This document shows positions 21,909 to 35,831 of a stretch of DNA of 64,000 nucleotides, in pieces. The notes beneath the pieces are model-generated. The model worked only from the letters and a program-made list of their open reading frames with translations, had not been told where the DNA came from and searched no databases. This DNA comes from an uncultured delta proteobacterium (GTDB taxonomy: Bacteria; Desulfobacterota; Binatia; Binatales; Binataceae). Within the stretch, counting starts at the first letter, position 1. Each line of letters begins with the position of its first letter. The position numbers were made by a program, and so were the translations under genes. The stretch covers positions 24,020 through 88,019 of the forward strand of contig CAVQAG010000005.1 of NCBI GenBank assembly GCA_963710455.1. Reading direction: 5' to 3'.

Positions 21909-22385
21909 ATGAGGAAGCCTGCGTTGGCGCTTCTGCTCGCACTAGCGGCCGCCGGCCTCGCGATGCAACTCATAATGGCCCGACGCATGACTCCGACGTC
22001 GCCGGGTTTGCCGCTATCCGATGACGATAACGTGGCACCGGCCCAAATCCAGGCGCTACTGAATCGCGCATGCTATGACTGCCATTCCAACCAGACCAGA
22101 TGGCCATGGTATAGCCGGGTCGTTCCGATTTCATGGCTGGTTGCGCGCGATGTGGCGTTAGGCCGCAAGGAACTCAACTTCTCGGAATGGGGCGCCTACT
22201 TCCCGCAAACGCGAATACGCAAGTTACAGTGGATGGGCCGCGTATTGCGCGAGCGCTCGATGCCGCCGGTGGCTTACCGCCTGATGCATCCGGGTGCGCG
22301 GCTCACTGCCGCCGAACGCGGGACGCTAGATCGATGGATCGAGTCTGAAATCTCGACCCTCACACCGCATACTGTCGCCAAATGA
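21909..22385 (+). CDS. haem-binding domain protein (CXXCH)
   Basis: It has a signal peptide and the motif NRACYDCHSNQTRWPWY (CXXCH). Confidence 0.75.
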   Translation: MRKPALALLLALAAAGLAMQLIMARRMTPTSPGLPLSDDDNVAPAQIQALLNRACYDCHSNQTRWPWYSRVVPISWLVARDVALGRKELNFSEWGAYFPQTRIRKLQWMGRVLRERSMPPVAYRLMHPGARLTAAERGTLDRWIESEISTLTPHTVAK

Positions 22386-23230: not shown

Positions 23231-23256
23231 AAGTCCAAAACCGGCATGGAGACCAC

Positions 23257-24132
23257 ATGAAAATTGGAGTGACTGCATTCCTTACCGAGAAATCTGGCAA
23301 TCCCGGAGTGATCGCGGCCACGGCCGAGCGCGTCGGATTCGAGTCGTTTTGGGTCGCCGAGCATCTGGTCATCCCGGCCGTTTACGCGACTTGCTATCCG
23401 CGCTCGGCCGACGGCAAGGTGCCCGAGTTTTACGCTCACCTGTCCGATCCGTTCGTCGCGCTGGCGGCGGCCGCGCAAGCCACCTCGCACATTCGCATCG
23501 GCACCAGCGTTTGTTTGCTGCCCGAACGCAATCCGATCGAAACCGCCAAGGCCGCCGCGACGCTGGATATGTATTCCGGTGGCCGGCTGATGTTGGGAGT
23601 TGGCGCGGGCTGGTTTCCCGAAGAGGCCGCGATCATGGGCGTCGACTTCAAGCGCCGCTGGCGTCATCTGCGCGAGTGCGTCGAGGCGATGCGCGAGCTA
23701 TGGGCCAAGCCCGAGGCGAGCTACGAGGGAGAGATCATCCGGTTCCCGCCAGTCAGGCTTTTTCCCAAGCCGATACAGAAGCCATATCCGCCAATTTTTC
23801 TCGGCGCGCACGATCCCGGGCCGGCTTTGAAACGGGTCGCGCGATGGGCGGACGGATGGATGCCGGGCGGGCTTAGCCCCGAGAAGGCCGAGGAGTGTAT
23901 ACCGCAGATCAAACGGATGGCGCGCGACAATGGACGCGACCCCGAGCGGATTGAGTTCTCGGTGATGCTCGGTATCGGCGCGCAGCAGGCACCGTCGGAC
24001 GACGCGCTCAAGCGTTATGCGGCAGCCGGCGTCAGCCGGGTGATAATCCTGGCGGGCGAGACTGCCGCGCGCGACGGCGTCGCTGTGGTCAAGGAACTGG
24101 CGCCGCTGGTTGAGCGTGCCGCGCGGATCTGA
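23257..24132 (+). CDS. LLM-class (luciferase-like) F420-dependent oxidoreductase
   Basis: AERVGFESFWVAEHLVIP...IRIGTSVCLLPERNPIETAKAAATLD..SGGRL.LGVGAGW...RWADGWMP. Confidence 0.8.
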   Translation: MKIGVTAFLTEKSGNPGVIAATAERVGFESFWVAEHLVIPAVYATCYPRSADGKVPEFYAHLSDPFVALAAAAQATSHIRIGTSVCLLPERNPIETAKAAATLDMYSGGRLMLGVGAGWFPEEAAIMGVDFKRRWRHLRECVEAMRELWAKPEASYEGEIIRFPPVRLFPKPIQKPYPPIFLGAHDPGPALKRVARWADGWMPGGLSPEKAEECIPQIKRMARDNGRDPERIEFSVMLGIGAQQAPSDDALKRYAAAGVSRVIILAGETAARDGVAVVKELAPLVERAARI

Positions 24133-24289: not shown

Positions 24290-24598
24290 TTGTCTATCGA
24301 AACGATCAAAATCGATCCGAACTCGGTTGTAGCCGCGGTTGCGGACCAGGTTTCCTGCGACCTCGAGGGCGAGGCTGCCGTCCTCAATCTCAAGACCGGC
24401 GTCTACTATGGACTCGACGACGTCGGGGCCTCGGTTTGGCGCATGCTCAATGAGCCGCGGCGCGTGGATGAACTGGTCGACGCGCTGCTCGGCGAGTACG
24501 AGGTGGATCGCGAGGAGTGCCAACGCGACGTGATCGCGTTGCTCGGCGAACTCGCCGTGCGCGGGCTGATCGAGATCAAGGACGGGGTCGAGGGCTGA
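24290..24598 (+). CDS. PqqD-family RiPP recognition element (lasso B1), copy 1
   Basis: VSCDLEGEAAVLNLKTGVYYGLDDVGASVWRMLNEPRRVDELVDALLGEYEVDREECQRDVIALLGELAVRGLI. The TTG start is the first start after the upstream stop. Confidence 0.85.
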   Translation: MSIETIKIDPNSVVAAVADQVSCDLEGEAAVLNLKTGVYYGLDDVGASVWRMLNEPRRVDELVDALLGEYEVDREECQRDVIALLGELAVRGLIEIKDGVEG

Positions 24599-24640
24599 GT
24601 GCTGATGTAACTCCAGTAACATCGATGTGGCGGAGGAGGT

Positions 24641-24949
24641 GTGATGGTGGTGGCGCAATTATCGCGAAACTCGGTCGTCGTGGCCTGCGAGGGCAACGCG
24701 TCGCGTGATCTGGAGGGCGAAGCCGGGGTTCTCATCTGCAAGGACGGCACGTACTACGGGCTCGAGGACGTCGGCGCGAAGATCTGGGCGCTCATTGCCG
24801 AGCCCCGCGCCGTAGGCGAGATCTGCGACACGCTGCTCGACGAATACGAAGTCGAGCCGGACGTCTGTGAACGCGACGTGATTGCGCTCGTCGGCGAACT
24901 TACCGCCAAGGGCCTCGCGCAGACCATAGATGCGGCACGCCTCAGTTGA
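24641..24949 (+). CDS. PqqD-family RiPP recognition element (lasso B1), copy 2
   Basis: ASRDLEGEAGVLICKDGTYYGLEDVGAKIWALIAEPRAVGEICDTLLDEYEVEPDVCERDVIALVGELTAKGL. A GGAGGAGG SD lies upstream. It is about 60% identical to copy 1 over the core. Confidence 0.85.
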   Translation: MMVVAQLSRNSVVVACEGNASRDLEGEAGVLICKDGTYYGLEDVGAKIWALIAEPRAVGEICDTLLDEYEVEPDVCERDVIALVGELTAKGLAQTIDAARLS

Positions 24950-24988
24950 TTTCTGCGGCGCTGCCTGGTCGGCGCGCCTGCGTGACTG

Positions 24989-26770
24989 ATGCGGGGCGGG
25001 CCATTGCGGGCCGGCGGAAACAGGCTTCGGCGGCCTGAAGACCAGTCAGCGAACAAGACCGCTGAGGGACAAGCTTCGGCGAGCGCGCTCGCGTCACTGA
25101 CGGTGTGCGTCGGTGCCGGTTTCGTCCTGGCGTTCACTCCGGTTCTCCTATGGCATCTTAAAACCGGTGACTGGGTCTGCCTAAGCGATTGGTTCAGCCT
25201 CTACTACCTGCGCTTCGTCGCACAAGCGTACTACCATCATGCTCTCTACATAGCCGACATCGTTATGCCGGGCGGCGCCACCACTTATCCGTGGCTTCAG
25301 TTCGTGCCGGCGACCTACGTTGCGCGAGTCTTGGGCGCGGGCCCATTCGCGGTCAACCTCATCTGGACTTTGCTGAGCGCAGTCGGACTCAGCGCAGGCC
25401 TCTATCTCGTTTTCCGGCATTTCCTCGGACGGCCCTGGGTGGCGGCTGGATGTACGATTCTCTGCATCTCAGACTATGGTTTCGCCGCCGCGCGTCCGCT
25501 CACGACTCAGCTTCAAATGCTCGCCTCAGCTCTTTGGCTCCATCCGCGGGGCTTCGTCACGATTCCGTGGGGGCTTCTGTTGCAGTGGCGCATTCCGGAT
25601 CCCGGCCTGAATCTTCCGTTCCTATTCTTTCAGATTGTCGCCCTTGCGCGAGCGCGCGAGCGGCCGACTCGCCTGAACCTGGGGTTTTCCGGACTGATGT
25701 TTGGACTGCTCTTCTACGTGTTTTTTTATTGCTGGACTATGGTGGCGGCCGGACTGGGTATCGCTTTCATGCTCGATCGCGGAGCGCGCAGAGTCTATGC
25801 CGCAACGTTATGCATAGGCGGTGTCATTGGCCTGCCGCAGTTGCTCTATGGCATTCACCTGAATCACCTGCTCTCGCCTGAAGCGATGAGGCGGTTCGGC
25901 CTGTTCACCCCGGCTCCCAGACTTTATGAGAACACTGTACCCACGCTTTCGCTCATTGCCCTGGCGGCGACTGCCTGGTGGATCCGGAAGTCCGAAAGAT
26001 TCGATCTGCTATACGCATGGAGCCTGGTCGCAGCAGGAATCCTGCTTAGCCGCAGCCGCATAGTCAGTGGAATATGTTTTCACGAGTATCACTATGATTG
26101 GCTATGGGCGCCGATTCGAGGCGCGCTGGTTCTGATCGTCGTGCTGAGTATCGTAAATCTGCGGTATCGATGGCGTCCGGCCATCGCCGCGACCTCCTGG
26201 GCGCTGCTGACGCTCTACTTCGCTAGCGGAGTCTACCTTGCCGCTATCTGCATTACCCGCACATCGTTCGGCGTGGCGCAGGTGGAGAATTACGTGCGAT
26301 ACAAGGCGCAGCGCATGTCCGGAGCGGTCGAGCCGCTCGTGCCCGGCGCGACGATCGCGGGCGACGACGGATTTTGCGAGGTGGCTGCGGTTGCCGAAGA
26401 CCAGTGGGTACTGAGCGGCGAGGCCGTTCCAAGAAGCCTGGTGGTTGACAACGATCAGTGGCAGTCGAGAGCGGCGCTCAACGCATACCTGTTGGGAACG
26501 GGCCGCGCGGAGTTTGAAAAGGCTGCGCAATCTGACGCCGAGCATTGGTTCTGGGAGAGACCCGAGCGCCAGCCCCAGGTGCTTGCTGCGTTCATGCGGA
26601 AATATGACGAAGTCGTCCATAACCCCGATCGATTTATCGTTCAATTCGGCGTCCGCTACGTGGCGCTGCCGGTGGACAAGGCCGAAAGTGTTTATGTACG
26701 CGAAGGTTGGACGATGTTTCAGCAGGGGCCCTATTGGCGGATCTGGGAGAGACGAAAATCCCGCCCCTGA
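24989..26770 (+). CDS. large polytopic membrane protein of unknown function, embedded in the lasso cluster
   Basis: 593 aa. Ten or more hydrophobic segments occupy the first 400 aa or so, followed by a roughly 190-aa soluble C-terminal domain. No family motif was recognised by eye. Confidence 0.7.
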   Translation: MRGGPLRAGGNRLRRPEDQSANKTAEGQASASALASLTVCVGAGFVLAFTPVLLWHLKTGDWVCLSDWFSLYYLRFVAQAYYHHALYIADIVMPGGATTYPWLQFVPATYVARVLGAGPFAVNLIWTLLSAVGLSAGLYLVFRHFLGRPWVAAGCTILCISDYGFAAARPLTTQLQMLASALWLHPRGFVTIPWGLLLQWRIPDPGLNLPFLFFQIVALARARERPTRLNLGFSGLMFGLLFYVFFYCWTMVAAGLGIAFMLDRGARRVYAATLCIGGVIGLPQLLYGIHLNHLLSPEAMRRFGLFTPAPRLYENTVPTLSLIALAATAWWIRKSERFDLLYAWSLVAAGILLSRSRIVSGICFHEYHYDWLWAPIRGALVLIVVLSIVNLRYRWRPAIAATSWALLTLYFASGVYLAAICITRTSFGVAQVENYVRYKAQRMSGAVEPLVPGATIAGDDGFCEVAAVAEDQWVLSGEAVPRSLVVDNDQWQSRAALNAYLLGTGRAEFEKAAQSDAEHWFWERPERQPQVLAAFMRKYDEVVHNPDRFIVQFGVRYVALPVDKAESVYVREGWTMFQQGPYWRIWERRKSRP

Positions 26771-26962
26771 TTCGCCGCGTCGTCCCGCGCTCCGGGATTC
26801 GCAATCTCACCATCGAACCTCCATTAGCCGTTCCACAGACGCGCATCCGTCTTGCGCTTGTTGCCTTCGCGCGGTTGCGCACACCGTTCGCAGACAAGAG
26901 TGCCAATAAAAGACGCGAAAGAGCAGGGCAGGAGCAGTTTAACTTTGAAACGACGCACAGCG

Positions 26963-27241
26963 AGGTATTTCGTGCTGAAACCAATGCATTCCGGCTTCTA
27001 TGCAACAACCCTCGAACTTCTTCTTGAGCATCTCCAGGTGAATACTCTGATTTTGACTGGCATCGCCAGCAATATCTGCGTTCTGTTCACCGCCAATGAC
27101 GCCTATATATGCGAGGTTACAAATTGTTCGTTCCGGCCGATTGTGTCGCCGCAAACAGCGCCAAAGAGACCGAGTATTCATTGTTGCAAATGAAGAACGT
27201 TTTGAAGGCAGATATTCGCGAAAGCGGCGAGATCGATTTCG
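26963..27241 (+). pseudogene. isochorismatase/cysteine-hydrolase family relic (C-terminal half only, frameshifted)
   Basis: RYFVLKPMHSGFYATTLELLLEHLQVNTLILTGIASNICVLFTANDAY lies in one frame. MRGYKLFVPADCVAANSAKETEYSLLQMKNVL lies in another. They are joined at a TATATATG dinucleotide repeat (about 27100-27110). No N-terminal half was recognisable. The local GC content drops. Confidence 0.7.
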
Positions 27242-27519
27242 ATGTTTTCGCGGCTACGGATCGTGACGGTCGCAGTCGTGCCCGCCCCGCTACGATGCGA
27301 CGACTTTATACTTTCAAGCGGAGCGCTCTCGAAACCGGTCGAAAACAGGAAAATCCGGCGACCAAATCGCAGGGCCGGCGCGTCGAGCATCGTATCCCGC
27401 AGGCGTCTGCGCGACCGCTCCAAAGACTCATATTGGATTCACGATCGTGCTGGTGTTAGTGTTGTGCGTCATGCTCGAGTACGCACATGCTAAACAGATG
27501 AGCGCCAGCAAGAACCGGG

Positions 27520-27975
27520 ATGGCGCGCCGGCTCGCTAGATTTTTCCATCTCCCATTTCCGGATCAGCGCCTGCTGATGCGGGCTGCGCTGGCCGTGGTC
27601 GGTGCGAAGCTGGCGGTCAGAACTTTGCCCTTGCCCGCCGCGCGTGCGGCTGTTTCTCGCCTGCAACGCCTGGGATGGATAGTCACGCCCACGCCCGCCG
27701 ATCGAATCGTGTGGGCGGTTGAGGCCGCGGGCCGCGCTATCCCCGGCATGAAGAACTGCCTGGTGCAGGCGGTCGCGGCGGAAGCGATGCTCGCCCGCGC
27801 GGGCCATCCGTGCGAGCTGCGAATCGGAGCTGCCAAGAGTGGGCCCAGCGAATTGATCGCACACGCGTGGCTGGAGAACGAGGGTAGAGTGCTCATCGGC
27901 GAGTTCGAGTTCGAGCGTTATACTCCGCTGATCCCGCCTCACCTCCGGCGCGGCACGCCGCCCTCGCAGCCGTAG
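27520..27975 (+). CDS. lasso peptide biosynthesis B2 protein (transglutaminase-like leader peptidase)
   Basis: GMKNCLVQAVAAEAMLARAGHPCELRIGAAK......IAHAWLENEGRVLIGE carries the conserved Cys and His of the B2 family. Confidence 0.9.
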   Translation: MARRLARFFHLPFPDQRLLMRAALAVVGAKLAVRTLPLPAARAAVSRLQRLGWIVTPTPADRIVWAVEAAGRAIPGMKNCLVQAVAAEAMLARAGHPCELRIGAAKSGPSELIAHAWLENEGRVLIGEFEFERYTPLIPPHLRRGTPPSQP

Positions 27976-28002
27976 ACCGGACCTCCCAATTACGGTCATT
28001 CG

Positions 28003-29919
28003 ATGAGCGGAATCGCCGCAGTTTACCATCTTGATGGGCGGCCCGTGGCGCGGGGGCTGGTCGCCGCGATGCTCGACGCGGTCGCCTACCGCGGACCCGA
28101 CGGTCTCGATTCGTGGATCGATGGCCCGGTCGGCCTTGGCCACGCGATGCTGCGCACCACGCCGGAAGCGATGCGCGACAGCCAGCCGCTGGTCGATGAG
28201 CAAAGTGGTCTCGCGCTTACGATGGATGGCCGGGTCGACAATCGCGATGAACTCGCGGCGCTGTTGGAGCGCCAGGGATTGCGGCTCGCCGTCGGCACGG
28301 ATGCGGAAATCGTGCTACGCGCGTACCAATGCTGGGGCGAGGAGGCGCCGGCGAAAATTCTAGGAGATTTTGCTTTCGCCCTGTGGGACAGGCGCAAGCG
28401 CCAGCTCTTCTGCGCGCGCGACTTTGCGAGCGTGCAGCCCTTGTTCTACTACAGCGATGGCCGCAGCTTCATCTGCGCTTCCGAGTTGCATCAGATACTT
28501 GCCGATCCGGAGGTGCCGCGCGAGCCCGACGAGCACGTGGTCGGTATGTACCTGACCGGGATGCTGCTCGATCCGGTCGCCACGCTCTATCGCGACATCC
28601 GCAGACTCGAGGGCGGCTGTTCGATCACGGTGCGGCCGGGCAAGATCGATCGGCGCCGCTACTTCGACATCGATCCTGCAAAGAGAATCCGCTATCGCAC
28701 CGACGCGGAGTACGCGGAGCATTTCGAGTCGATACTCAAGGAAGCGGTGCGATGCAGGCTGCGCAACGTCGACGGTGTGGCGGCGGAACTGAGCGGCGGT
28801 CTCGACTCTTCGCTGATCGTCGGAAACATACGGCGCCTGTTGCGGGAAGGCGCGGCACCCGCTCCGCGGTTCGAAACCTTTTCGATCAAGTTCGACGATC
28901 CGCAGGCCGACGAGCGGAGCTTCATCGAGGACGTGGCCGCGCAGTGGGGGTTGCAGACCAACTGGAGTCCGCCATTCTTCGCGAAGTTTTCCGATTTTAT
29001 GGCGGACATCAGGCGCTATCGCTCCTTCGCCGCCCGCCCGAACTCGGTCATGGACACCTTGATGCATCGCGCGATACGCGAACGGGGATTCCGCGTGGTC
29101 CTGACCGGCCAGGGCGGTGACCAATGGTTCGGCGGCAGTGCGGATTGCTTCGCCGAATTGCTGCGCGGGTTTCGGTTCGTCGAGCTTTTCAGACTGCTGC
29201 GCGAAGAAGCGGCTCATCCGACGCGAGTGCGGCCCGGGCAGGCACCGCTGGCGTTGCTGCTGCGCCGCGCCCTGTGGCCGTTGGTGCCGCCGCGGCCCAG
29301 GCTTTTTATCAACCGCCTGCGTGGCTTGAGATTGGTTCCGCCATTCGCCAACCCCGAGTTCACGCGCAGGCTGGACCTCGAGCGCGCGCGAAACGCTCCG
29401 ACCCGCCGGCTTCGCGGCCTCAGCTTCACGCAGCGAACCATGTATCAGGTTCTCAACCTGGGAATCTCGATTCATTTTGCCGAATTGAACGAACGTGAAT
29501 GTGCGCTCGCAGGTATCGAGGGAAGACATCCGTTCTACGACCGCCGCGTGATCGAATTCGCTTTCGCGATTCCTGAAGATCAGCGATGCCGCCCGGGCGC
29601 AACCAAATACATTTTTCGACAGCCGGGCCGCGGACTGCTACCGGAATCGGTTCGCCAGCGCCGGGATAAGGCTGAATTCTCAAGCCTGCTTGTTCATGGA
29701 TTGAAGGATGTGCTCGAAGCTCTCGGCGGCGAGGACGCCTTCGGCTCGTTCAACGTTGTGCAACGAGGCTGGGTGGATCCGGAACAATTTCGCCTCGTGT
29801 ATCGCGAGCGAATGCGTAACATCGGGTCGGCCAACCTATGGCCTTTGTGGTCGGTGCTGGAGCTTGAGATGTGGTCGAGAGAATGTATGGGTTTCCCCGC
29901 CAGGGCGAAGTCAGACTAG
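28003..29919 (+). CDS. lasso cyclase (asparagine synthetase B-like, C protein)
   Basis: MSGIAAVY has Ser in place of the glutaminase Cys2. GLGHAMLRTTPE, GRVDNRDEL, AEIVLRAY..WGE, GDFAFALWD and the PP-loop ELSGGLDSS are all present. Confidence 0.95.
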   Translation: MSGIAAVYHLDGRPVARGLVAAMLDAVAYRGPDGLDSWIDGPVGLGHAMLRTTPEAMRDSQPLVDEQSGLALTMDGRVDNRDELAALLERQGLRLAVGTDAEIVLRAYQCWGEEAPAKILGDFAFALWDRRKRQLFCARDFASVQPLFYYSDGRSFICASELHQILADPEVPREPDEHVVGMYLTGMLLDPVATLYRDIRRLEGGCSITVRPGKIDRRRYFDIDPAKRIRYRTDAEYAEHFESILKEAVRCRLRNVDGVAAELSGGLDSSLIVGNIRRLLREGAAPAPRFETFSIKFDDPQADERSFIEDVAAQWGLQTNWSPPFFAKFSDFMADIRRYRSFAARPNSVMDTLMHRAIRERGFRVVLTGQGGDQWFGGSADCFAELLRGFRFVELFRLLREEAAHPTRVRPGQAPLALLLRRALWPLVPPRPRLFINRLRGLRLVPPFANPEFTRRLDLERARNAPTRRLRGLSFTQRTMYQVLNLGISIHFAELNERECALAGIEGRHPFYDRRVIEFAFAIPEDQRCRPGATKYIFRQPGRGLLPESVRQRRDKAEFSSLLVHGLKDVLEALGGEDAFGSFNVVQRGWVDPEQFRLVYRERMRNIGSANLWPLWSVLELEMWSRECMGFPARAKSD

Positions 29920-29965
29920 AATCTTATCTTCTTAGAATCTTATCTTCTTAAGAATCTTATCTTCG
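29917..29965. repeat. three tandem 16-17-bp direct repeats starting at the cyclase stop codon
   Basis: TAGAATCTTATCTTCT (29917-29932), TAGAATCTTATCTTCT (29933-29948) and TAAGAATCTTATCTTCG (29949-29965). They are followed by an AT-rich segment up to the precursor SD. Confidence 0.9.
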
Positions 29966-30132
29966 CGAAACTGTCCGTAAAACCTAGCCTTTTTCGTTTC
30001 ATCCTTGATGCCATTTGCTCGTCTTATTTATTTCTTGTTATATCTTGACTCCTCAGCGAAGTTTAAGCATTCTTAGTTAGGCCAACGTTGTCAAAGCTAT
30101 CAGATGACGATGGTAACTATGGAGGAGCCACG

Positions 30133-30303
30133 ATGAGCAAGAAAAGCGAAGGTGCGGCTGCGGAAGTTCGTACGCCGATACGCAAAAAGCCCTACCGCAC
30201 GCCGCGTCTTACCGAGTTCGGTCACGTTGCGAAACTGACCGCCGGAACCGCAGGCACGCATACTGATAAAGGGCATATGTCTAACGAACACGGACAGGGC
30301 TAA
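30133..30303 (+). CDS. lasso peptide precursor (A), 56 aa
   Basis: A GGAGGAG SD lies 5 nt before ATG 30133. The peptide is MSKKSEGAAAEVRTPIRKKPYRTPRLTEFGHVAKLTA/GTAGTHTDKGHMSNEHGQG. The leader matches YxxPxLx3Gx5TxG, with Thr at -2. The core starts with Gly1 and has Asp8 available for an 8-residue macrolactam. The ORF track lists the longer 30088 start. Confidence 0.85.
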   Translation: MSKKSEGAAAEVRTPIRKKPYRTPRLTEFGHVAKLTAGTAGTHTDKGHMSNEHGQG

Positions 30304-30324
30304 TGAGGCTTTGCGGCGCCTCAT
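30303..30324 (+). promoter_or_regulatory. stem-loop immediately after the precursor stop (possible attenuator or mRNA stabiliser)
   Basis: ATGAGGC-tttgcggc-GCCTCAT forms a 7-bp stem overlapping the TAA stop. No U-tract follows. Confidence 0.45.
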
Positions 30325-30850
30325 CCTGTCTCTGGTCCTGAATAAAAACCTGCGGGAGGAGCTACAATTTGTCGTAATCCGGAGAGGCATTGTCTAGAGG
30401 CATTGGTGGCTGCCGCCTCTCGGAACAGCCGAGGAAATTGTCGGAACCGGACGCTCGGGTTGAAATCGGGCGTCCGAACTCGTTGAGGTTGCGCTTCTTC
30501 GTCGCGCTCGAGACTCTCTAGAACGTCCCAATCATCTCTTTAACCATTTATTCTCGCCTCTAGTTTGCGGAGGAACGGAGAGGGGGAGTGGCCATCTACT
30601 GATTACGGGCATATCCCCTCTGAAAGCCACCACCACCGTCGCCAACCAGCCATGGCAGCGGTCGACGAACAGATCTCCAGAAATCCCCGCCTGTTCCTTG
30701 ATCTTTCCCGAGAGTGTAGAATTGCCGTCTGAATCCAGCTAGCGGGTCTGAACGCCCGTAAGCTGAAAGGGCTGCAGGCGGCGCACAATCAAAGCTTCCC
30801 CACAGGCGCGTTCCCGACAGCCACTGCGGTTCCATTACGTCGCCTATGGG

Positions 30851-31825
30851 TTGGCGATCGACTCGGATGTTCCGCTGCCCGAGCTGGAAACCACACAACG
30901 CAAATCATTGCCACTTTTTTCGGGACGTCTGCGGATACGGATGGAGCGCCCGTTAGGGGCGAGCCTGCGCGAGCCGCACGATTGGCTGCTTCAGACAAGC
31001 CTGCCTGACGGGCGGCCGTGGATGTGGGCGGCGCGCCAGGAGCAGGGATTCTTGCTGCGCTACGTCGGTCTTGCCGACTTCGCAGTGAATCCGCGCGGCA
31101 CCGAAATGGTTTTGTTGCACGCCGCGCCGGAGAGCTCGCGCGATACGCTCGGCCACTTGTTGCTCGATCAGGCGCTCCCGATGGTCTTGGGTTTGCACGG
31201 AATTCCTACGCTGCATGCTTCCACCGTGGTGACTCCGCGTGGTGTGTGCGCGTTCCTCGGGCCGGCCGGAGCAGGCAAATCGACATTGGCCGCGAGCTTT
31301 GCGAGCGTTGGCTACCCGGCGCTGGGTGACGACTGCCTCGCAATAAAAGAAGACCGTGGATTATTTGCCATCCCGGCGTACCCGGGCCTGCGTCTGTGGA
31401 CCGATTCAGCCGAATCGCTGTCGACGGATTGGTCCAATGCTCCTGCCGTTGCGCACTACACACGCAAGCGGCGCATCCTGAATGCGCCGGCGGCGCAAAA
31501 GTTTCCCACACGGCCGGTGCGCCTGGCGGCCATCTACTGCATCGCGCGCGAGGCGAGCGAGGACGGGCCAAGCACGACGCCGGTGATCGAATCGCTGCGG
31601 CCCAACGAAGTCTTCCTGCAACTGCTCTCCGCCAGTTTCATGCTCGATATCACCGATCGCTCGGTGCTCACCCGCAACCTGCGCTTCATCGAACGCCTGT
31701 TAAATGCGGTGCCGGTCCGGCGGCTGAGGGTTCCTGACGGGTTTTCGTCGCTGCCCAAGGTACGCGAAGCGGTCCTTAAGGACCTCGGTGCATCGAACCT
31801 TGCCGTCAGTCTCGGCGAAAGATAG
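30851..31825 (+). CDS. HPr kinase/phosphorylase-like serine kinase (lasso-associated kinase)
   Basis: LHASTVVTPRGVCAFLGPAGAGKSTLAASF...LGDDCLAI (P-loop plus GDD). The family-typical N-terminus HYVAYGLAIDSDVPLPEL extends in-frame upstream of the TTG at 30851, with no canonical start back to the stop at 30764-30766. Confidence 0.8.
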   Translation: MAIDSDVPLPELETTQRKSLPLFSGRLRIRMERPLGASLREPHDWLLQTSLPDGRPWMWAARQEQGFLLRYVGLADFAVNPRGTEMVLLHAAPESSRDTLGHLLLDQALPMVLGLHGIPTLHASTVVTPRGVCAFLGPAGAGKSTLAASFASVGYPALGDDCLAIKEDRGLFAIPAYPGLRLWTDSAESLSTDWSNAPAVAHYTRKRRILNAPAAQKFPTRPVRLAAIYCIAREASEDGPSTTPVIESLRPNEVFLQLLSASFMLDITDRSVLTRNLRFIERLLNAVPVRRLRVPDGFSSLPKVREAVLKDLGASNLAVSLGER

Positions 31826-33151
31826 GTGGGCGGCCGAGCGCGGATCGCTAAAGGCGCCGGCGATGCCTTCGTGAATTCCATCGCATCCGTACTCAAATCC
31901 AGCCCGGCCCCGAGCCGCGAAGCTGAGCTTCTGATCTGTTGTGCTACTTCGGTTGCAACGCCCGAGCGCAGCGCACGCGCGCGCGCGATCGTGGATAAGG
32001 GCGTCGATTGGGAGCGCGTCTCGCATATGGCGTCGGTGCAGGCGGTGATGCCGCTGGTTTATCGCTATCTGACCTCCGAACTCGGCGGCACGCTGCCGGC
32101 CGAAGCGACAAGCGGGCTCCGCCGGGCCTTTTACGGCAATTCGGTGCGTAACCTCCATCTCGCACGCGAACTGGTGCGCCTGACAACGCTACTCGAACAG
32201 GGAGGCGTCGAACCGCTGGCGCTCAAAGGGCCGGCGCTGGCGATGGCCGCCTACGGCGCTGTTACGATGCGCCAGTTTAACGACCTCGATCTCCTGGTGC
32301 GCAAAGGCGAAGTCCGGCGAGCGGCCGATATCCTGCTCGCCGCGGGCTATGCGCCGCGCGCCGGATACCGTGTTGCTGACCTGGACCGGCCGGGCGCGTA
32401 TGAAATCGCGATGACGCGGGCGGGCGCCCTGATGGAAATCGATCTTCACTGGCGGCTCATTCCGCCCTATTTTCCACTCGCGCTGGACAGCGAAGATCTG
32501 TGGCGGCGCGCGGTGCGGATCGAGGTTGAAGGTGCCCCCGTGCACACGCTCGCACCTGCCGACCATCTGCTCTATCTCTGCGCGCACGGAGCTAAGCACG
32601 GATGGCAGGCGCTCGGTGGGATCTGCGATCTCGCCGAACTGATTCGCGCGACGTCGCGCGCTTCGGCCCCAACTTCATCGCAATCCTCCTTGCAAGTTCC
32701 CGGTATAGACTGGGATGAGCTCTCGGCGAGGGCCGAGCAGGCGGCTGCGCATCGTGCGCTCGAACTCGGGGTACTACTCGCACACGAACTGCTCGATGCC
32801 GCAGTGCCGTCCGCCATACTGGCGGCGGCGCGCCGCGAGCGCGCGGTGGTGCGCGCCGCCCGGAGCTTCGTCGCTTACGCCAGCGACCCTATCGACGACG
32901 GCCCGGGGTTTTACCAGCGATGGGTGGTGCCGTTGGGCGTGATCGCTGGACCAGGAGCGCGGCTGCGCTATCTTGCCGCACGGGCATTATTGCCGAGCGC
33001 CGACGATCACGAGTTTCTGCGGCTGCCGCTGGCGCTTTATCCACTGTACTATCTGCTGCGGCCGGTGCGGGTGGCGCTGAAGGAGGGTCCTGCCGTCGTG
33101 CGCAGGCTGATGCGTTCGGCGCCGCATCCGGCGGATCATTCATCGCGGTGA
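31826..33151 (+). CDS. nucleotidyltransferase-family protein (uncharacterised NTP_transf type, lasso-associated)
   Basis: LALKGPALAMAAYG....RQFNDLDLLVRKGEVRRAADILLAAGY...EIDLHWRL. The GTG start directly follows the kinase TAG. Confidence 0.75.
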   Translation: MGGRARIAKGAGDAFVNSIASVLKSSPAPSREAELLICCATSVATPERSARARAIVDKGVDWERVSHMASVQAVMPLVYRYLTSELGGTLPAEATSGLRRAFYGNSVRNLHLARELVRLTTLLEQGGVEPLALKGPALAMAAYGAVTMRQFNDLDLLVRKGEVRRAADILLAAGYAPRAGYRVADLDRPGAYEIAMTRAGALMEIDLHWRLIPPYFPLALDSEDLWRRAVRIEVEGAPVHTLAPADHLLYLCAHGAKHGWQALGGICDLAELIRATSRASAPTSSQSSLQVPGIDWDELSARAEQAAAHRALELGVLLAHELLDAAVPSAILAAARRERAVVRAARSFVAYASDPIDDGPGFYQRWVVPLGVIAGPGARLRYLAARALLPSADDHEFLRLPLALYPLYYLLRPVRVALKEGPAVVRRLMRSAPHPADHSSR

Positions 33152-34125
33152 GGAAAGCCCTGGGCAGCTTTATTCACGCGCTGTTCGAGGTGGGTCGCCT
33201 GCGGATCGCCGGCGCGATCGGCTTGATGTTGCTCTTTTCGCTCAGCGAGGGTATGGGGGTCGCACTGCTGCTGCCCATTCTGCAGATCTCCGGCTTCAAT
33301 CTCGGTGGGCAGGGTCCGGTCGGCCGGTATGCCGACGCCATCGCCGCCGCCTTCGAAGCCGTCGGCCTGCATCCGAGCCTGCTGCTGCTACTCATGGTAT
33401 TCGCGGGGCTGGTCGGGACGCGGGCGCTGCTGGGGCGCTGGCAGTCAGTCGCGATGTTCTCGGTGCAACAGAATTTCGGCGCCCGGCTGCGCGATCGCCT
33501 GTACCACGCGATCTCCAACGCCAGCTGGCTTGCGCTTTCGCGGATGCGCTCCTCCGACCTGACTCATGCGCTGACCTCCGAGATCGATCGGGTCGAAGTC
33601 GCCGCCTTCGAGGCGATGATTCTCGCCTCCACCGCGCTGCTGTTCCTGCTCTACCTCGGGATCGCGCTGGCTGTCTCACCCTCAATGACAGCGCTCGCGT
33701 TCGGTTGTGGAATCGTCCTGGTCGCGATGCTGCGCGGGCGCACCGCGCTTTTGCGCGGCTCCGGCGCCGAGCTCTCCGAGCGGATCAAGGCACTCTATGC
33801 CGCAACGGTCGAGCATCTGCAGAGCCTCAAAGCGGCCAAGATGTATGGGGTGCAGCAGCGTAATGCCGACGCCTACGCGGCGCTCAGCCACGAGGTCGCC
33901 CGCGTTAACGTCAATATTGAGCGCCAGCAGGCCGCCACCAATTCGCTGTTCGAGATCGGTTCGGTGATCATTCTGGCCCTCGTGCTTTACGTTTCGATCC
34001 GCGTGCTGGGGGTTTCTCCGATAGCCGTGCTGCTGCTGCTCGCGATGTTTGCGCGAGTGATGCCGCGGGTGGATGACGTGCCATCAACTGTACCAGGAAT
34101 GCCTGCACGCGTTGCCCGCGTTTGA
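33148..34125 (+). CDS. ABC exporter, transmembrane-domain portion (lasso D), separated from the ATPase portion by a frameshift
   Basis: GTG 33148 overlaps the upstream TGA (GTGA). It has six hydrophobic segments (IAGAIGLMLLFSLSEGMGVALLLPIL and others). The frame ends at 34125, whereas homology continues in the frame of ORF 34073. Confidence 0.8.
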   Translation: MRKALGSFIHALFEVGRLRIAGAIGLMLLFSLSEGMGVALLLPILQISGFNLGGQGPVGRYADAIAAAFEAVGLHPSLLLLLMVFAGLVGTRALLGRWQSVAMFSVQQNFGARLRDRLYHAISNASWLALSRMRSSDLTHALTSEIDRVEVAAFEAMILASTALLFLLYLGIALAVSPSMTALAFGCGIVLVAMLRGRTALLRGSGAELSERIKALYAATVEHLQSLKAAKMYGVQQRNADAYAALSHEVARVNVNIERQQAATNSLFEIGSVIILALVLYVSIRVLGVSPIAVLLLLAMFARVMPRVDDVPSTVPGMPARVARV

Positions 34126-35065
34126 AAATGTAATGGCCCTGGCCGCGCGCTGCACGTCGGCGGCCGAGCCGGCGAATGCTCCCGTGCAGACGCTCGAATT
34201 TGGAAACTCGCTCCGCATGGAATCCGTCTCGTTCTCCTATCAGCGCGCGAACGGGGCGGCGCCTGGGAAACAGCCCGGCCGATCCATCGCTGACCGGTCG
34301 CCGTCTGATCACTTTTGGGACCTCCCGCAACGGTCGCCAGCGGTGCACGACCTCGACCTCACCGTTGCGGTGGGCGAGGTGGTGGCGCTGGTCGGGCCGT
34401 CGGGCGCCGGCAAAAGCACGATTGCGGATTTGATGACCGGCTTGCTCGCCCCCGATTCCGGGCGGATCACGATCGACGGGGTCGCGTTGGACGAGACGCA
34501 CGCGCGGGCCTGGCGCGAGCAGATCGGGTACGTCTCCCAGGACACGTACCTGTTCCACGATTCGGTGCGCGCGAACCTGTTGTGGACCCGGCCGGGCGCG
34601 AGCGAGGCCGAGGTGCACCAGGCGCTCGCGATGGCCGCGGCAGAGCAATTCGTCGACGCGCTGCCGGCCGGGCTCGACACCGTGATTGGCGATCGCGGGG
34701 CGACGATTTCGCACGGCGAACGTCAGCGCATCGCGCTCGCGCGCGCGTTGCTGCGCCGTCCACGCCTGCTAATTCTGGACGAGGCGACCAACAGCCTCGA
34801 CGCGCACAACGAGCAGCGGATTCTCGAAGCGATCGAACGGCTGCGGGGCGATCTCACGATCGTGACTATTGCGCATCGGATTGCCGCGGTACGACGAGCC
34901 GATCACATCTACGTCATCGAGGGCGGCACGATCATGGAATCGGGAACCTGGGATGAGCTGTGCGCGCGGGAGCACGGACGCTTTCGCGCGCTATGCGAGA
35001 GCCAGGGAATCGCGCCCGCGCCGACCGCTCCGGCGCGGCAGGCGGCATCTCGCCGGCTCGCTTAG
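34073..35065 (+). CDS. ABC exporter, ATP-binding portion (lasso D)
   Basis: Walker A is LVGPSGAGKST. The Q-loop is YVSQD. The signature is ISHGERQR (a variant of LSGGQ). Walker B is LLILDEAT. The H-loop is TIAHR. The preceding QLYQECLHALPAFENV is the end of the TMD. Confidence 0.9.
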   Translation: MTCHQLYQECLHALPAFENVMALAARCTSAAEPANAPVQTLEFGNSLRMESVSFSYQRANGAAPGKQPGRSIADRSPSDHFWDLPQRSPAVHDLDLTVAVGEVVALVGPSGAGKSTIADLMTGLLAPDSGRITIDGVALDETHARAWREQIGYVSQDTYLFHDSVRANLLWTRPGASEAEVHQALAMAAAEQFVDALPAGLDTVIGDRGATISHGERQRIALARALLRRPRLLILDEATNSLDAHNEQRILEAIERLRGDLTIVTIAHRIAAVRRADHIYVIEGGTIMESGTWDELCAREHGRFRALCESQGIAPAPTAPARQAASRRLA

Positions 35066-35750: not shown

Positions 35751-35831
35751 TGCGAGAGGGGGGACTTGAACCCCCACGCCTTGCGGCACCGGATCCTAAG
35801 TCCGGCGCGTCTGCCGTTCCGCCACTCTCGC
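35751..35831 (-). tRNA. tRNA-Leu (anticodon TAG)
   Basis: The reverse complement is GCGAGAGTGGCGGAACGGCAGACGCGCCGGACTTAGGATCCGGTGCCGCAAGGCGTGGGGGTTCAAGTCCCCCCTCTCGCA. It has a perfect 7-bp acceptor stem, a CTTAGGA anticodon loop and a long variable arm. CCA is not encoded. Confidence 0.9.

What the first reader, a model, noticed from the sequence alone, without database searches (positions are those of the whole stretch)
24290..35065. Lasso-peptide BGC with kinase, nucleotidyltransferase, duplicated RRE and an embedded giant membrane protein
Seen in sequence, all on the + strand with coupled junctions:
- PqqD x2
- a B2 Cys protease (NCLVQA...AHAWLE)
- an Asn-synthetase-like cyclase (MSGI..., SGGLDSS)
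- a precursor with the YxxPxLx3Gx5TxG leader
- an HPrK-like kinase (GPAGAGKST...GDD)
- a nucleotidyltransferase
- an ABC exporter

Established knowledge: the B1/B2/C/A/D set defines lasso clusters. Kinase-containing clusters are known from Firmicutes (paeninodin, pseudomycoidin), where the product is phosphorylated and, in pseudomycoidin, further glycosylated.

Inference: this high-GC Gram-negative-type cluster differs from the described examples in its gene order (A between C and K), its two RREs and its 593-aa membrane protein. It may make a new tailored lasso peptide.
Basis: partly seen in the sequence, partly recalled or inferred. Interest (0 to 1): 0.8.

Follow-up and report, generated by a model that had tools for sequence, protein, structure and literature searches.

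The report
Lasso-peptide cluster with membrane glycosyltransferase-like enzyme
This is a real gene cluster for a knotted "lasso" peptide from an uncultured soil bacterium (Binataceae). Its unusual feature is a large membrane protein with the fold of a lipid-linked-sugar transferase, a kind of enzyme not found described for this peptide class in the papers searched.

Summary
Window 24290-35065 (+) encodes two PqqD/RRE proteins, a 593-aa membrane protein, B2 protease, lasso cyclase, a 56-aa precursor, an HPr-kinase-like kinase, a PF14907 nucleotidyltransferase and an ABC exporter.

New findings:
- **Membrane protein:** it has no Pfam family. Its AlphaFold model matches only GT-C glycosyltransferases (PglB/STT3, AftA, DPY19, ArnT).
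- **Linkage:** its homologues sit inside kinase/nucleotidyltransferase lasso clusters of Binataceae in at least four gene orders, down to 36% identity. More distant kinase-type lasso clusters lack it.
- **Precursor:** the core is GTAGTHTDKGHMSNEHGQG, with a predicted Gly1-Asp8 ring. It lacks the C-terminal Ser that all characterised lasso kinases phosphorylate, so the paeninodin/pseudomycoidin chemistry cannot simply be transferred.
- **Two RREs:** PqqD1 is lost together with B2 in related clusters, so it is B1. PqqD2 is a second RRE. In relatives it follows a methyltransferase that this window has lost, and it evolves under relaxed constraint here.
- **Damage:** one extra G splits the ABC gene, and an isochorismatase pseudogene fragment lies between the membrane protein gene and B2. 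The other genes are under purifying selection.

Verdict: a new variant of a known kind, of moderate interest. The product chemistry is inferred, not shown.

The parts
24290..24598 (+). PqqD1: RRE / B1 leader-binding chaperone, partner of B2
   Evidence: PF05402 E 3.8e-21; NF033536 E 1e-20. It is 88-100% identical in close relatives, with dN/dS 0.03. It is missing together with B2 in L035 and L041. The PqqD next to B2 in L018 is 57% identical to it.
24641..24949 (+). PqqD2: second, diverged RRE paralogue, always directly upstream of the GT-C gene
   Evidence: PF05402 E 9.7e-18. It is about 50% identical to PqqD1. It is the only RRE kept in the B2-less clusters L035 and L041. dN/dS is 0.47-0.66 in pairs that lack the methyltransferase and 0.175 in a pair that has it.
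24989..26770 (+). 593-aa GT-C-fold membrane protein (glycosyltransferase-like): 13 predicted TM helices plus a C-terminal soluble domain
   Evidence: No Pfam, NCBIfam or PDB sequence match. AF2 model pLDDT 82.5, pTM 0.84. The 23 best Foldseek PDB matches are all GT-C enzymes, for example PglB 5ogl at E 7e-7 and AftA 8if8 at TM 0.50. Asp90 in the first external loop and Asp263 are invariant, Asp162 is nearly so, and an H-E-Y-H-Y-x-W-L-W motif lies at 365-373. dN/dS 0.18.
26852..27459 (+). Isochorismatase-family gene fragment (C-terminal half, frameshifted): a pseudogene relic, not part of the pathway
   Evidence: PF00857 positions 82-136 in one frame and 137-165 in the next. Relics of it occur in L037, L038 and L039. 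L033 carries a full-length copy inside a 3-kb insertion; L034, which has the same insertion, shows only a short match.
27520..27975 (+). B2 leader peptidase (transglutaminase-like Cys protease)
   Evidence: NF033537, 82.2 bits (cut-off 33); PF13471 E 4.8e-20. Cys in NCLVQA (aa 79-84) and His in AHAWLE (aa 114-119).
28003..29919 (+). C: lasso cyclase (asparagine-synthetase-like, forms the isopeptide bond)
   Evidence: PF00733 E 7.7e-47; GATase_7 E 8e-29; NF033535 460 bits, E 1e-137, below its 525-bit cut-off. SGGLDSS at aa 264. dN/dS 0.12.
29917..29964 (.). 16-nt tandem repeat (TAGAATCTTATCTTCT, 2.9 copies) in the AT-rich C-A spacer; possible operator, specific to this genome
   Evidence: TRF score 87, 96% matches. 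The first 70-90 nt of the spacer have no match in relatives.
30133..30303 (+). A: 56-aa precursor, with a 37-aa leader and the 19-aa core GTAGTHTDKGHMSNEHGQG
   Evidence: NF033521, 22.3 bits (cut-off 19). The motif Y-RT-P-R-L-TEF-G-HVAKL-T-A-G puts Thr at -2 and Gly at core position 1. GGAGGAG lies 5 nt upstream of the ATG. Orthologues in L001, L004, L024, L034, L035, L038, L040 and L041 conserve G1, T2, G4, S/T5, D8, K9, G10, H16, G17 and G19. dN/dS 0.13.
30304..30323 (+). Small hairpin (TGAGGC-N8-GCCTCA) immediately after the precursor stop codon
   Evidence: Read directly from the sequence. Not found by the terminator scan because it has no T-run. Function is inferred only.
30690..30850 (+). 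Conserved non-coding element upstream of K: TGTAGAAT (extended -10-like box) followed by a hairpin
   Evidence: 69-87% identical across L001, L004, L024, L033, L034, L038, L040 and L041, while the rest of the A-K spacer is not conserved. The hairpin stem has 4 pairs with changes on both sides. No Rfam match.
30851..31825 (+). K: HPr-kinase-like peptide kinase. The start is uncertain: TTG here, CTG in most relatives.
   Evidence: A profile of 9 homologues hits HPr(Ser) kinase 3tqf at E 4.6e-8, and also 1jb1, 2qmh and 1ko7. PF07475 is hit by 4 of 9 homologues, best E 3.6e-7. His122, Gly142-Lys143-Ser144 and Asp160-Asp161 are invariant. This matches the His-Lys-Asp-Asp motif reported for lasso kinases (PMC9266682).
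31826..33151 (+). N: PF14907 nucleotidyltransferase-fold protein
   Evidence: PF14907 E 7.9e-61. A G-x(n)-D-L-D motif lies at aa 153-155. dN/dS 0.20. It is present in all but one (L016, whose contig ends nearby) of the GT-C-linked lasso clusters whose contigs reach beyond the kinase gene.
33148..35065 (+). D: ABC exporter (TMD+NBD), reading frame broken by one extra G near 34072
   Evidence: PF00664 and PF00005 lie in two frames. tblastn of the L024 orthologue switches frame between 34071 and 34073. The window reads CGGGTGGATG where L033 reads CGGGT-GATG. The gene is intact at 614 aa in L038. The GTG start overlaps the N stop codon as GTGA.

Best explanation
This is a lasso-peptide biosynthetic gene cluster of an uncultured Binataceae bacterium (phylum Binatota). 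It belongs to the kinase/nucleotidyltransferase-tailored type and carries a lineage-specific addition: a GT-C-fold membrane glycosyltransferase homologue.

Shown by computation:
- All core genes are present and under purifying selection.
- The membrane protein has a GT-C fold and invariant loop aspartates.
- Its gene is linked to lasso genes across deep divergence and in several gene orders.

Inferred mechanism:
1. The 56-aa precursor is bound through its leader by PqqD1 (B1).
2. B2 cuts after Ala37, with Thr at -2.
3. C activates the Asp8 side chain and joins it to the Gly1 amine. This gives an 8-residue ring threaded by an 11-residue tail.
4. K phosphorylates a hydroxyl on the linear precursor. 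There is no C-terminal Ser, so the target is most likely one of the conserved ring Ser/Thr residues (Thr2, Ser/Thr5, Thr7).
5. N elaborates the phosphate, by analogy with PsmN.
6. PqqD2 presents the leader to tailoring enzymes. Originally these included a PRMT-like methyltransferase that this genome has lost.
7. The ABC transporter exports the peptide.
8. The GT-C enzyme most likely then adds sugar from a polyprenyl-phosphate donor to the peptide. In known GT-C enzymes the active site faces the periplasm.

In this copy the ABC gene is split by a 1-nt insertion, so export may be impaired unless that is a sequencing error.
For: - **Core genes:** searches give B1, B2, C, the precursor leader, N and the ABC exporter. 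Searches give K.
- **Selection:** dN/dS is 0.03-0.20 for PqqD1, GT-C, B2, C, A, K and N against L038.
- **GT-C fold:** AF2 pLDDT 82.5, pTM 0.84. The 23 top PDB matches are all GT-C enzymes. Several act on peptides: PglB/STT3 and DPY19.
- **Predicted topology:** a basic N-terminus, 13 helices and a C-terminal domain, as in PglB. Asp90 in the first external loop is invariant, including in non-lasso homologues.
- **Linkage:**
  - GT-C homologues sit inside K+N lasso clusters in L001, L004, L024, L035, L038 and L041 (64-82% identical).
  - The same holds in L002, L006 and L011 (47-48%), L012 (45%), L015 (38%), L016 (36%; no N found on the short flank) and L018, L032 (36%).
  - These clusters show at least four different gene orders.
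- **Family context:** the most distant sequenced homologue lies in a GT2/GT4/WecA-type glycan cluster, as expected for a sugar-transfer family.
- **Precedent:** glycosyltransferases recur in kinase-type lasso clusters. Examples are Butyrivibrio GT2 (PMC7533575) and a cyanobacterial cluster. PsmN-dependent hexosylation is documented (PMC6993621).
- **Precursor:** Ser/Thr-rich rings are conserved and the C-terminal Ser is absent.
- **RREs:** PqqD1 is lost together with B2 in L035 and L041.
Against: - No experiment exists. The product, the phosphorylation site, the reaction of N and any sugar transfer are all inferred.
- The GT-C assignment rests on a predicted fold, with TM-scores of only 0.4-0.5. 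There is no sequence match to any Pfam family or PDB chain.
- The cluster has no gene for a polyprenyl-phosphate sugar synthase.
- Relatives L001, L002 and L035 keep the GT-C gene but have no ABC gene next to it. The export-then-glycosylate order is therefore not enforced by gene content, although L002 and L012 have an MFS transporter instead.
- In close relatives the GT-C gene is fragmented (L024) or deleted (L033, L034), so it is dispensable for the host.
- This copy has a broken ABC gene.
Confidence: 0.5

Rival explanations
1. The GT-C protein is a self-protection or envelope-remodelling factor. It would modify a lipid or glycan of the producer's own envelope (ArnT-like) so that the exported lasso peptide does not harm the producer. 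It would not touch the peptide.
For: - ArnT, Emb and Aft enzymes, which modify envelope lipids and glycans, are among the fold matches.
- Paralogues of the same family sit in housekeeping (obg/proB/L21-L27) and glycan-cluster neighbourhoods. The family therefore has envelope roles outside lasso clusters.
- Relatives that lost the GT-C gene (L034) keep B2, C, A, K and N.
Against: - The mature core is near neutral, not cationic (Lys9, Glu15 and the C-terminal carboxylate; read). The usual charge-based logic for lipid modification is therefore weak.
- The gene sits in the middle of the biosynthetic operon, directly after an RRE, and stays there in B2-less variants.
- The best fold matches are peptide-acting GT-Cs.
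Confidence: 0.2
2. In this genome the cluster is a decaying remnant that no longer makes or exports a product.
For: - The ABC gene is frameshifted.
- An isochorismatase pseudogene fragment is inserted in the operon.
- The methyltransferase present in L001, L004, L014 and L035 is missing.
- PqqD2 evolves under relaxed constraint.
- Sister genomes show clear decay:
  - L033 has lost most of B2, all of C and most of the GT-C gene.
  - L034 has lost the GT-C gene.
  - L024 has a fragmented GT-C gene.
- An IS transposase and a tRNA gene lie nearby.
Against: - Every other gene is intact with dN/dS 0.03-0.26, including against a 97%-identical relative.
- The same architecture without the methyltransferase has an intact 614-aa ABC gene in L038.
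- The frameshift is a single base in a GG run and could be a sequencing error.
Confidence: 0.25
3. One reading: a paeninodin/pseudomycoidin-like product, phosphorylated and then hexosylated on the C-terminal Ser. The membrane protein would be an unrelated passenger.
For: K has the His-Lys-Asp-Asp signature and an HPr-kinase match. N is PF14907, the 'uncharacterised nucleotidyltransferase' type described for PsmN (PMC6993621).
Against: - No C-terminal Ser occurs in the precursor or in any orthologue; the ends are ...HGQG...KKPG...PTRR and ...GDKT. Ser13 is Ala in several orthologues.
- A passenger gene would not stay linked across 36-97% identity and four gene orders.
Confidence: 0.07

Closest known systems
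Pseudomycoidin cluster (psmCAKB1B2ND, Bacillus pseudomycoides; PMC6993621)
   Same: Lasso core genes plus an HPr-kinase-like K, a nucleotidyltransferase-fold N and an ABC exporter. Glycosylation is part of the tailoring.
   Different: - PsmA ends in Ser, the site of phosphorylation and hexosylation. This precursor ends in Gly.
- The psm cluster has no membrane glycosyltransferase, one RRE, a different gene order and a Firmicute host.
- Sequence relatedness of N to PsmN was not tested here.
Paeninodin, ThcoK and SyanK kinase-type lasso clusters (Zhu et al. 2016, as reviewed in PMC9266682 and PMC8498205)
   Same: [quoted passage not shown] They occur in Gram-negative bacteria too (Sphingobium).
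   Different: The characterised kinases recognise a C-terminal Ser, described as the conserved hallmark of their precursors. That residue is absent here and in other environmental K-linked precursors.
GT-C glycosyltransferases that act on peptides (PglB/STT3 oligosaccharyltransferases, DPY19 C-mannosyltransferase, PMT)
   Same: Predicted 13-TM fold with a C-terminal extracytoplasmic domain, and an invariant acidic residue in the first external loop.
   Different: - No detectable sequence similarity.
- The core has no N-x-S/T sequon.
- Donor and acceptor are unknown.
- No paper in the searched library links a GT-C enzyme to lasso peptides. To my knowledge, none is known to tailor any RiPP.
RiPP clusters with more than one RRE
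   Same: Separate PqqD-like leader-binding proteins or domains serve different modifying enzymes. This is established knowledge of RRE biology and was not tested here.
   Different: Characterised lasso clusters, as described in the reviews read here, have one B1. Here a second free-standing PqqD travels with the methyltransferase and GT-C genes, and it persists when B1 and B2 are lost.

Membership tests
Lasso peptide biosynthetic gene cluster (RiPP class) | Precursor with a leader ending in Thr at -2, a small residue at core position 1 and Asp or Glu at core position 7-9 | tested here: met
   ...KLT-A | G-TAGTHT-D8...; NF033521 22.3 bits against a cut-off of 19.
Lasso peptide biosynthetic gene cluster (RiPP class) | B1 (PqqD-like RRE) and B2 (transglutaminase-like Cys protease) | tested here: met
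   PF05402 E 3.8e-21. NF033537 82 bits against a cut-off of 33. Cys and His motifs are present.
Lasso peptide biosynthetic gene cluster (RiPP class) | Asn-synthetase-like lasso cyclase (C) | tested here: met
   PF00733 E 7.7e-47. The best NCBIfam model is the lasso cyclase NF033535 (E 1e-137), but 460 bits is below its 525-bit cut-off.
Lasso peptide biosynthetic gene cluster (RiPP class) | Threaded, isopeptide-closed product | not testable with these tools
   Needs MS, NMR and carboxypeptidase or heat tests.
Phosphorylated / phosphoglycosylated lasso peptides (paeninodin, pseudomycoidin type) | HPr-kinase homologue with a His-Lys-Asp-Asp catalytic motif | tested here: met
   Profile hit to 3tqf at E 4.6e-8. 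H122, K143, D160 and D161 are invariant.
Phosphorylated / phosphoglycosylated lasso peptides (paeninodin, pseudomycoidin type) | Precursor ends in Ser, the phosphorylation site (PMC9266682, PMC8498205) | tested here: not met
   The core ends ...EHGQG. No orthologue ends in Ser.
Phosphorylated / phosphoglycosylated lasso peptides (paeninodin, pseudomycoidin type) | PsmN-like nucleotidyltransferase-fold protein | tested here: inconclusive
   PF14907 E 7.9e-61 with a D-x-D motif. No direct comparison with the PsmN sequence was possible.
GT-C glycosyltransferase superfamily | Multi-TM GT-C fold with a long first external loop and, in the PglB/STT3 type, a C-terminal extracytoplasmic domain | tested here: met
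   AF2 pTM 0.84. The 23 top PDB matches are all GT-C, probability 1.0, TM 0.34-0.50.
GT-C glycosyltransferase superfamily | Conserved acidic catalytic residue in the first external loop | tested here: inconclusive
   Asp90 is invariant in 18 of 18 sequences and lies between TM1 and TM2. Its catalytic role and sidedness are not testable here.
GT-C glycosyltransferase superfamily | Sequence membership in a described GT-C family (STT3, PMT, ArnT/GT83, GT87, etc.) | tested here: not met
   No Pfam hit for any of 18 members. No PDB sequence hit.
McjD-type ABC exporter of lasso clusters | Fused TMD-NBD half-transporter encoded in the cluster | tested here: inconclusive
   Both domains are present (PF00664, PF00005), but a 1-nt insertion splits them. 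The gene is intact in L038.

The most novel reading that the evidence does not exclude
The GT-C-fold protein is a dedicated RiPP-tailoring enzyme. It would glycosylate the exported lasso peptide, or its phosphorylated form, on the periplasmic face using a polyprenyl-phosphate-linked sugar. That would be the first lipid-linked-donor, extracytoplasmic glycosylation of a ribosomal natural product. The kinase would act on ring Ser/Thr instead of the canonical C-terminal Ser.
Probability: 0.3. Interest if true: 0.8.

Novelty: new variant of a known kind. Interest (0 to 1): 0.55.

Why it matters
**New tailoring compartment.** Lasso peptides are valued as stable scaffolds, and their tailoring chemistry is still a short list. 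A conserved GT-C enzyme inside a lasso operon points to a tailoring step outside the cytoplasm, using lipid-linked sugars. None of the RiPP literature searched here describes this.

**Kinase specificity.** These precursors lack the C-terminal Ser. The substrate rule derived from paeninodin, ThcoK, SyanK and PsmK therefore does not cover all lasso-associated HPr-kinase homologues.

**Which RRE serves which enzyme.** The paired RREs show co-loss (PqqD1 with B2) and relaxed constraint (PqqD2 where the methyltransferase is gone). This is a natural experiment on RRE-enzyme pairing.

**Access to an uncultured phylum.** The cluster family comes from the uncultured phylum Binatota. The literature searches returned no paper linking it to lasso peptides.

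Tried and rejected
- **Source contig:** an exact-sequence look-up of the cyclase found nothing.
- **Sequence-based naming of the membrane protein:** Pfam and NCBIfam on the single protein and on 18 homologues gave only noise (TctB, RbsU). A profile search of PDB sequences gave nothing.
- **Luciferase-like monooxygenase, haem-binding protein and porin-like genes upstream (21909-24132):** considered as cluster members and rejected. They are syntenic only in close relatives and are absent next to the L002, L012, L018 and L035 clusters.
- **Isochorismatase fragment:** considered as a tailoring gene and rejected. It is a truncated, frameshifted relic of a 3-kb insertion seen whole in L033.
- **Ser13 as the kinase target:** rejected because it is Ala in L004, L024, L034, L035 and L041.
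- **N-glycosylation sequon for a PglB-like enzyme:** none is present in the core.
- **Riboswitch or known RNA in the spacers:** Rfam found only a tRNA at 35751-35831 (-).
- **Sigma-70 promoter and terminator scans:** no enrichment.
- **First metagenome scan with the 9-sequence kinase alignment:** It was repeated with 6 sequences.
- **Literature searches:** lasso+Binat* returned no papers, and lasso+GT-C returned one unrelated review.

Full report

Yes. On the + strand between 24290 and 35065 the window encodes the following.

| Gene | Coordinates | Evidence |
|---|---|---|
| PqqD1 | 24290-24598 | PF05402, E 3.8e-21 |
| PqqD2 | 24641-24949 | PF05402, E 9.7e-18 |
| Membrane protein, 593 aa | 24989-26770 | no Pfam or NCBIfam family |
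| B2 protease | 27520-27975 | NF033537, 82 bits (cut-off 33) |
| Lasso cyclase C | 28003-29919 | PF00733, E 7.7e-47; NF033535, E 1e-137 but below that model's cut-off |
| Precursor A | 30133-30303 | NF033521, 22.3 bits (cut-off 19) |
| Kinase-like K | 30851-31825 | see below |
| Nucleotidyltransferase N | 31826-33151 | PF14907, E 7.9e-61 |
| ABC exporter D | 33148-35065 | membrane and ATP-binding halves in different frames |

The precursor is best read from ATG 30133, which follows a GGAGGAG ribosome-binding site. Its sequence is MSKKSEGAAAEVRTPIRKKPYRTPRLTEFGHVAKLTA|GTAGTHTDKGHMSNEHGQG.

As a single sequence, the kinase assignment was weak. An alignment of nine homologues makes it solid:
- His122, Gly142-Lys143-Ser144 and Asp160-Asp161 are invariant.
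- The profile matches the HPr(Ser) kinase structure 3tqf at E 4.6e-8 across exactly that segment. It also matches 1jb1, 2qmh and 1ko7.
- Four of the nine homologues hit Pfam Hpr_kinase_C.
- This is the His-Lys-Asp-Asp signature reported for lasso kinases (PMC9266682).

The description 'coupled junctions' is only partly right. Five junctions are tight or overlapping. Three spacers are long:
- 749 nt between the membrane protein gene and B2.
- 213 nt between C and A.
- 547 nt between A and K.

**2. Where does it come from, and is the architecture conserved?**

Homologues of the membrane protein are nearly all unnamed metagenome proteins. The one named hit is from Candidatus Binataceae. The species-representative genomes that carry relatives are Binataceae or 'uncultured delta proteobacterium' MAGs. 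The family belongs to the candidate phylum Binatota.

Independent contigs share the window's architecture:
- L037 (membrane protein 97% identical) matches as far as the contig reaches.
- L038 and L039 (82%) match gene for gene. In L038 the ABC gene is intact at 614 aa.

Between the window and L038, dN/dS is 0.03-0.20 for PqqD1, the membrane protein, B2, C, A, K and N. These are functional genes, or were until very recently.

**3. What is the 'giant membrane protein'?**

*Fold.*
- Sequence methods give nothing.
- An AlphaFold2 model built on 18 homologues is confident: mean pLDDT 82.5, pTM 0.84.
- It shows 13 long helices, a long first loop with two short helices, and a C-terminal alpha/beta domain at about residues 445-590.
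- Against the PDB, the 23 best Foldseek matches are all GT-C glycosyltransferases. They include bacterial PglB (5ogl, E 7e-7), eukaryotic STT3, AftA (8if8, TM 0.50), DPY19, ALG9/ALG12, AftD, ArnT and EmbA/B. Unrelated transporters appear only below them, at probabilities of 0.15 or less.
- TM-scores are moderate, 0.34-0.50.

*Conserved residues.* Asp90 in the first external loop and Asp263 are invariant. Asp162 is nearly invariant. An H-E-Y-H-Y-x-W-L-W motif lies at 365-373. All of these hold in homologues that are not in lasso clusters as well.

*Family size.* The family is small: 814 representatives at E <= 1e-3 among 1.84 billion.

I therefore call it a GT-C-fold, glycosyltransferase-like protein. 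This rests on fold. Membership of a described sequence family was tested and not met.

**4. Does it belong to the cluster?**

The comparative evidence says yes.

*Linkage in species-representative genomes.* Among 31 such loci and further contigs, homologues lie inside lasso clusters that also carry K, and N wherever the contig extends far enough (L016 is the exception). This holds at four levels of divergence, each with a different gene order:
- The window type: L001, L004, L014 (contig ends inside the membrane protein gene), L024, L035, L037-L039 and L041, at 64-97% identity.
- L002, L006 and L011, at 47-48% identity. The order is N, K and A on the opposite strand, then the GT-C gene, then C, PqqD and B2.
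- L012, at 45% identity. The order is A, PqqD, B2, a TPR protein, C, GT-C, K, MFS.
- L015, L016, L018 and L032, at 36-38% identity.

*Paralogues elsewhere.*
- Some lie in a housekeeping neighbourhood (proB, obg, L27, L21).
- The most distant one sampled lies in a GT2/GT4/WecA-type glycan cluster.
- Homologues from other phyla are not next to lasso genes.
- A neighbour-joining tree without bootstrap places the lasso-linked copies as a paraphyletic Binatia group, with the housekeeping paralogues nested inside it.

*The converse test.* I searched metagenomes for homologues of K. Of 19 contigs of at least 6 kb, most carried lasso genes. Only the close relative L041 carried the GT-C gene.

So the GT-C gene is a lineage-specific addition to a widespread kinase-type lasso cluster.

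**5. The precursor and the kinase problem.**

Orthologous cores are:
- GTAGTHTDKGHMSNEHGQG (window)
- GTTGSSTDKGTLSNVHGMG
- GTTGSHTDKGSHAGIHGQG
- GTSGTHTDKGHLANRHGEG
- GTTGTSTDKGHMANMHGQG
- GTTGSASDKGTMANHHGMG
- GTTGSHTDKGTMANAHGNG

Conserved positions are G1, T2, G4, S/T5, D8, K9, G10, H16, G17 and G19.

The more distant GT-C-linked clusters have these cores:
- SGGSHTPTDGAALKKPG
- GETGSKADPGHTAPTRR
- HLTTGMAEDHFSPGPGDKT

The predicted ring is Gly1-Asp8, with an 11-residue tail.

None of these ends in Ser. Two reviews state that the characterised kinases (PadeK, ThcoK, SyanK, PsmK) phosphorylate the C-terminal Ser. They also call that residue the conserved feature of kinase-type precursors in both Firmicutes and Proteobacteria (PMC9266682, PMC8498205). 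That defining feature is not met here.

What is conserved across all four cluster types is Ser/Thr inside the ring. I infer that this is the likely target, but nothing here tests it. Other environmental K-linked precursors also lack a terminal Ser, so this gap in knowledge is wider than this one cluster.

**6. The two RREs.**

PqqD1 and PqqD2 are about 50% identical.

*PqqD1 is B1.*
- It is very conserved (96% identical to its L038 orthologue, dN/dS 0.03).
- The PqqD beside B2 in L018 resembles it most closely, at 57%.
- In L035 and L041, PqqD1 and B2 are missing together while PqqD2, GT-C, C, A and K remain; N is also present in L035, and the L041 contig ends inside K.

*PqqD2 is a second RRE.*
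- In L001, L004, L014 and L035, a 379-aa PRMT/PrmA-like methyltransferase lies just upstream of PqqD2. L018 and L032 carry a 30%-identical homologue.
- L024 and L033 keep only fragments of that methyltransferase. The window, L034, L037 and L038 have none.
- PqqD2 has dN/dS 0.175 in the pair that has the methyltransferase. It has 0.47-0.66 in pairs that lack it.
- This fits a second RRE that partly served the lost methyltransferase. It remains an inference.

**7. Damage in this copy.**

- The ABC gene is interrupted by one extra G. The window reads CGGGTGGATG where relatives read CGGGT-GATG. The frame switches between 34071 and 34073. Whether this is a mutation or a sequencing error cannot be decided here.
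- Between the GT-C gene and B2 lies the C-terminal half of an isochorismatase gene, itself frameshifted. Relics of it occur in L037-L039. In L033 and L034 a 3-kb insertion, which in L033 includes a full isochorismatase gene, sits where the GT-C gene has been deleted.
- L033 has also lost most of B2, all of C and part of A.
- The locus is therefore unstable across the clade.

**8. Most likely mechanism.**

Steps 1-3 and 7 follow the established lasso pathway. Steps 4-6 and 8 are inferred.

1. The leader is bound by PqqD1.
2. B2 cleaves after Ala37.
3. C forms the Gly1-Asp8 isopeptide bond.
4. K phosphorylates a Ser/Thr hydroxyl of the linear precursor. Known lasso kinases act on the linear peptide.
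5. N elaborates the phosphate, as PsmN does in pseudomycoidin (PMC6993621).
6. PqqD2 recruits tailoring enzymes.
7. The ABC transporter exports the peptide.
8. The GT-C enzyme adds sugar at the periplasmic face.

Glycosyltransferases recur in kinase-type lasso clusters. Examples are GT2 in Butyrivibrio (PMC7533575) and a cyanobacterial case noted in PMC6993621. This makes a tailoring role more likely than an immunity role, but both remain open.

**9. Comparison with what is known, and novelty.**

The closest described systems are pseudomycoidin and the paeninodin/SyanK type. The cluster works like them in outline. It fails their defining C-terminal-Ser feature, and it adds a GT-C-fold protein and a second RRE.

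Literature searches gave nothing relevant. Lasso+Binat* found no papers, and lasso+GT-C found one unrelated review. Broader searches on glycosylated lasso peptides showed only pseudomycoidin-type chemistry.

I rate it a new variant of a known kind. It would interest RiPP specialists, and it is testable by heterologous expression. It is not categorically new, and this copy is slightly degraded.

Noticed in passing
window 26852-27459: C-terminal half of an isochorismatase-family gene, split by a frameshift, lies between the GT-C gene and B2. It is a relic shared with L037, L038 and L039. L033 carries the full gene.
   Followed up: yes
L033 10306-13805; L034 10189-13186: A 3-kb insertion sits where the GT-C gene has been internally deleted. 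It encodes a small DUF883-like membrane protein and a ~750-aa protein, plus a full isochorismatase in L033. L033 has also lost most of B2, all of C and part of the precursor.
   Followed up: partly
window 29917-29964: A 16-nt tandem repeat (TAGAATCTTATCTTCT, 2.9 copies) lies in the AT-rich spacer upstream of the precursor gene. It is absent from relatives and could be an operator or insertion scar.
   Followed up: partly
window 30690-30850: About 160 nt upstream of K are conserved in eight relatives, while the rest of the spacer is not. The element contains TGTAGAAT (extended -10-like box) and a hairpin with some compensatory changes. It has no Rfam match.
   Followed up: partly
window 30851: The annotated TTG start of K aligns with CTG in L001, L004, L033 and L034, yet the following 30 residues are conserved. 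The true start codon is uncertain; it may be a rare CTG start or the internal ATG at 30941.
   Followed up: no
window 35751-35831 (-) and 37355-38623 (-): A tRNA gene (58.7 bits) and a DDE transposase (DUF772 + DDE_Tnp_1) lie just downstream of the cluster. L038 has a phage-type integrase at the equivalent place. This suggests a recombination-prone region.
   Followed up: no
L035 6466-14672; L041 1209-8347: These are cluster variants without B2 or PqqD1. In L035 the order is methyltransferase, PqqD2, GT-C, C, A, K, N. How the leader is removed there is unknown; compare B-independent pseudomycoidin synthesis (PMC6993621).
   Followed up: partly
L012 6454-8040 and 12786-14018; L015 8990-9745; L016 1114-2673 and 5789-7504; L018 11713-13155 and 17789-18979: The divergent GT-C-linked lasso clusters carry extra genes: JmjC and 2OG-Fe(II) oxygenases, methyltransferases, ~520-aa TPR proteins, a multicopper oxidase and an MFS transporter.
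   Followed up: partly
L004 19421-21609: A second lasso cluster (PqqD, then a cyclase 41% identical to C) begins directly after the ABC gene of the first one in this relative.
   Followed up: no
L036 8001-9671; L007-L010, L013: A paralogue of the GT-C-fold protein is conserved in a housekeeping neighbourhood (proB, obg, rpmA, rplU) in Binataceae. This implies an unknown core envelope function for the family.
   Followed up: partly
L042-L097: Many environmental precursors next to K homologues also lack a C-terminal Ser. Three end in Cys-Leu. The C-terminal-Ser rule for lasso kinases may be a sampling artefact of the characterised examples.
   Followed up: partly
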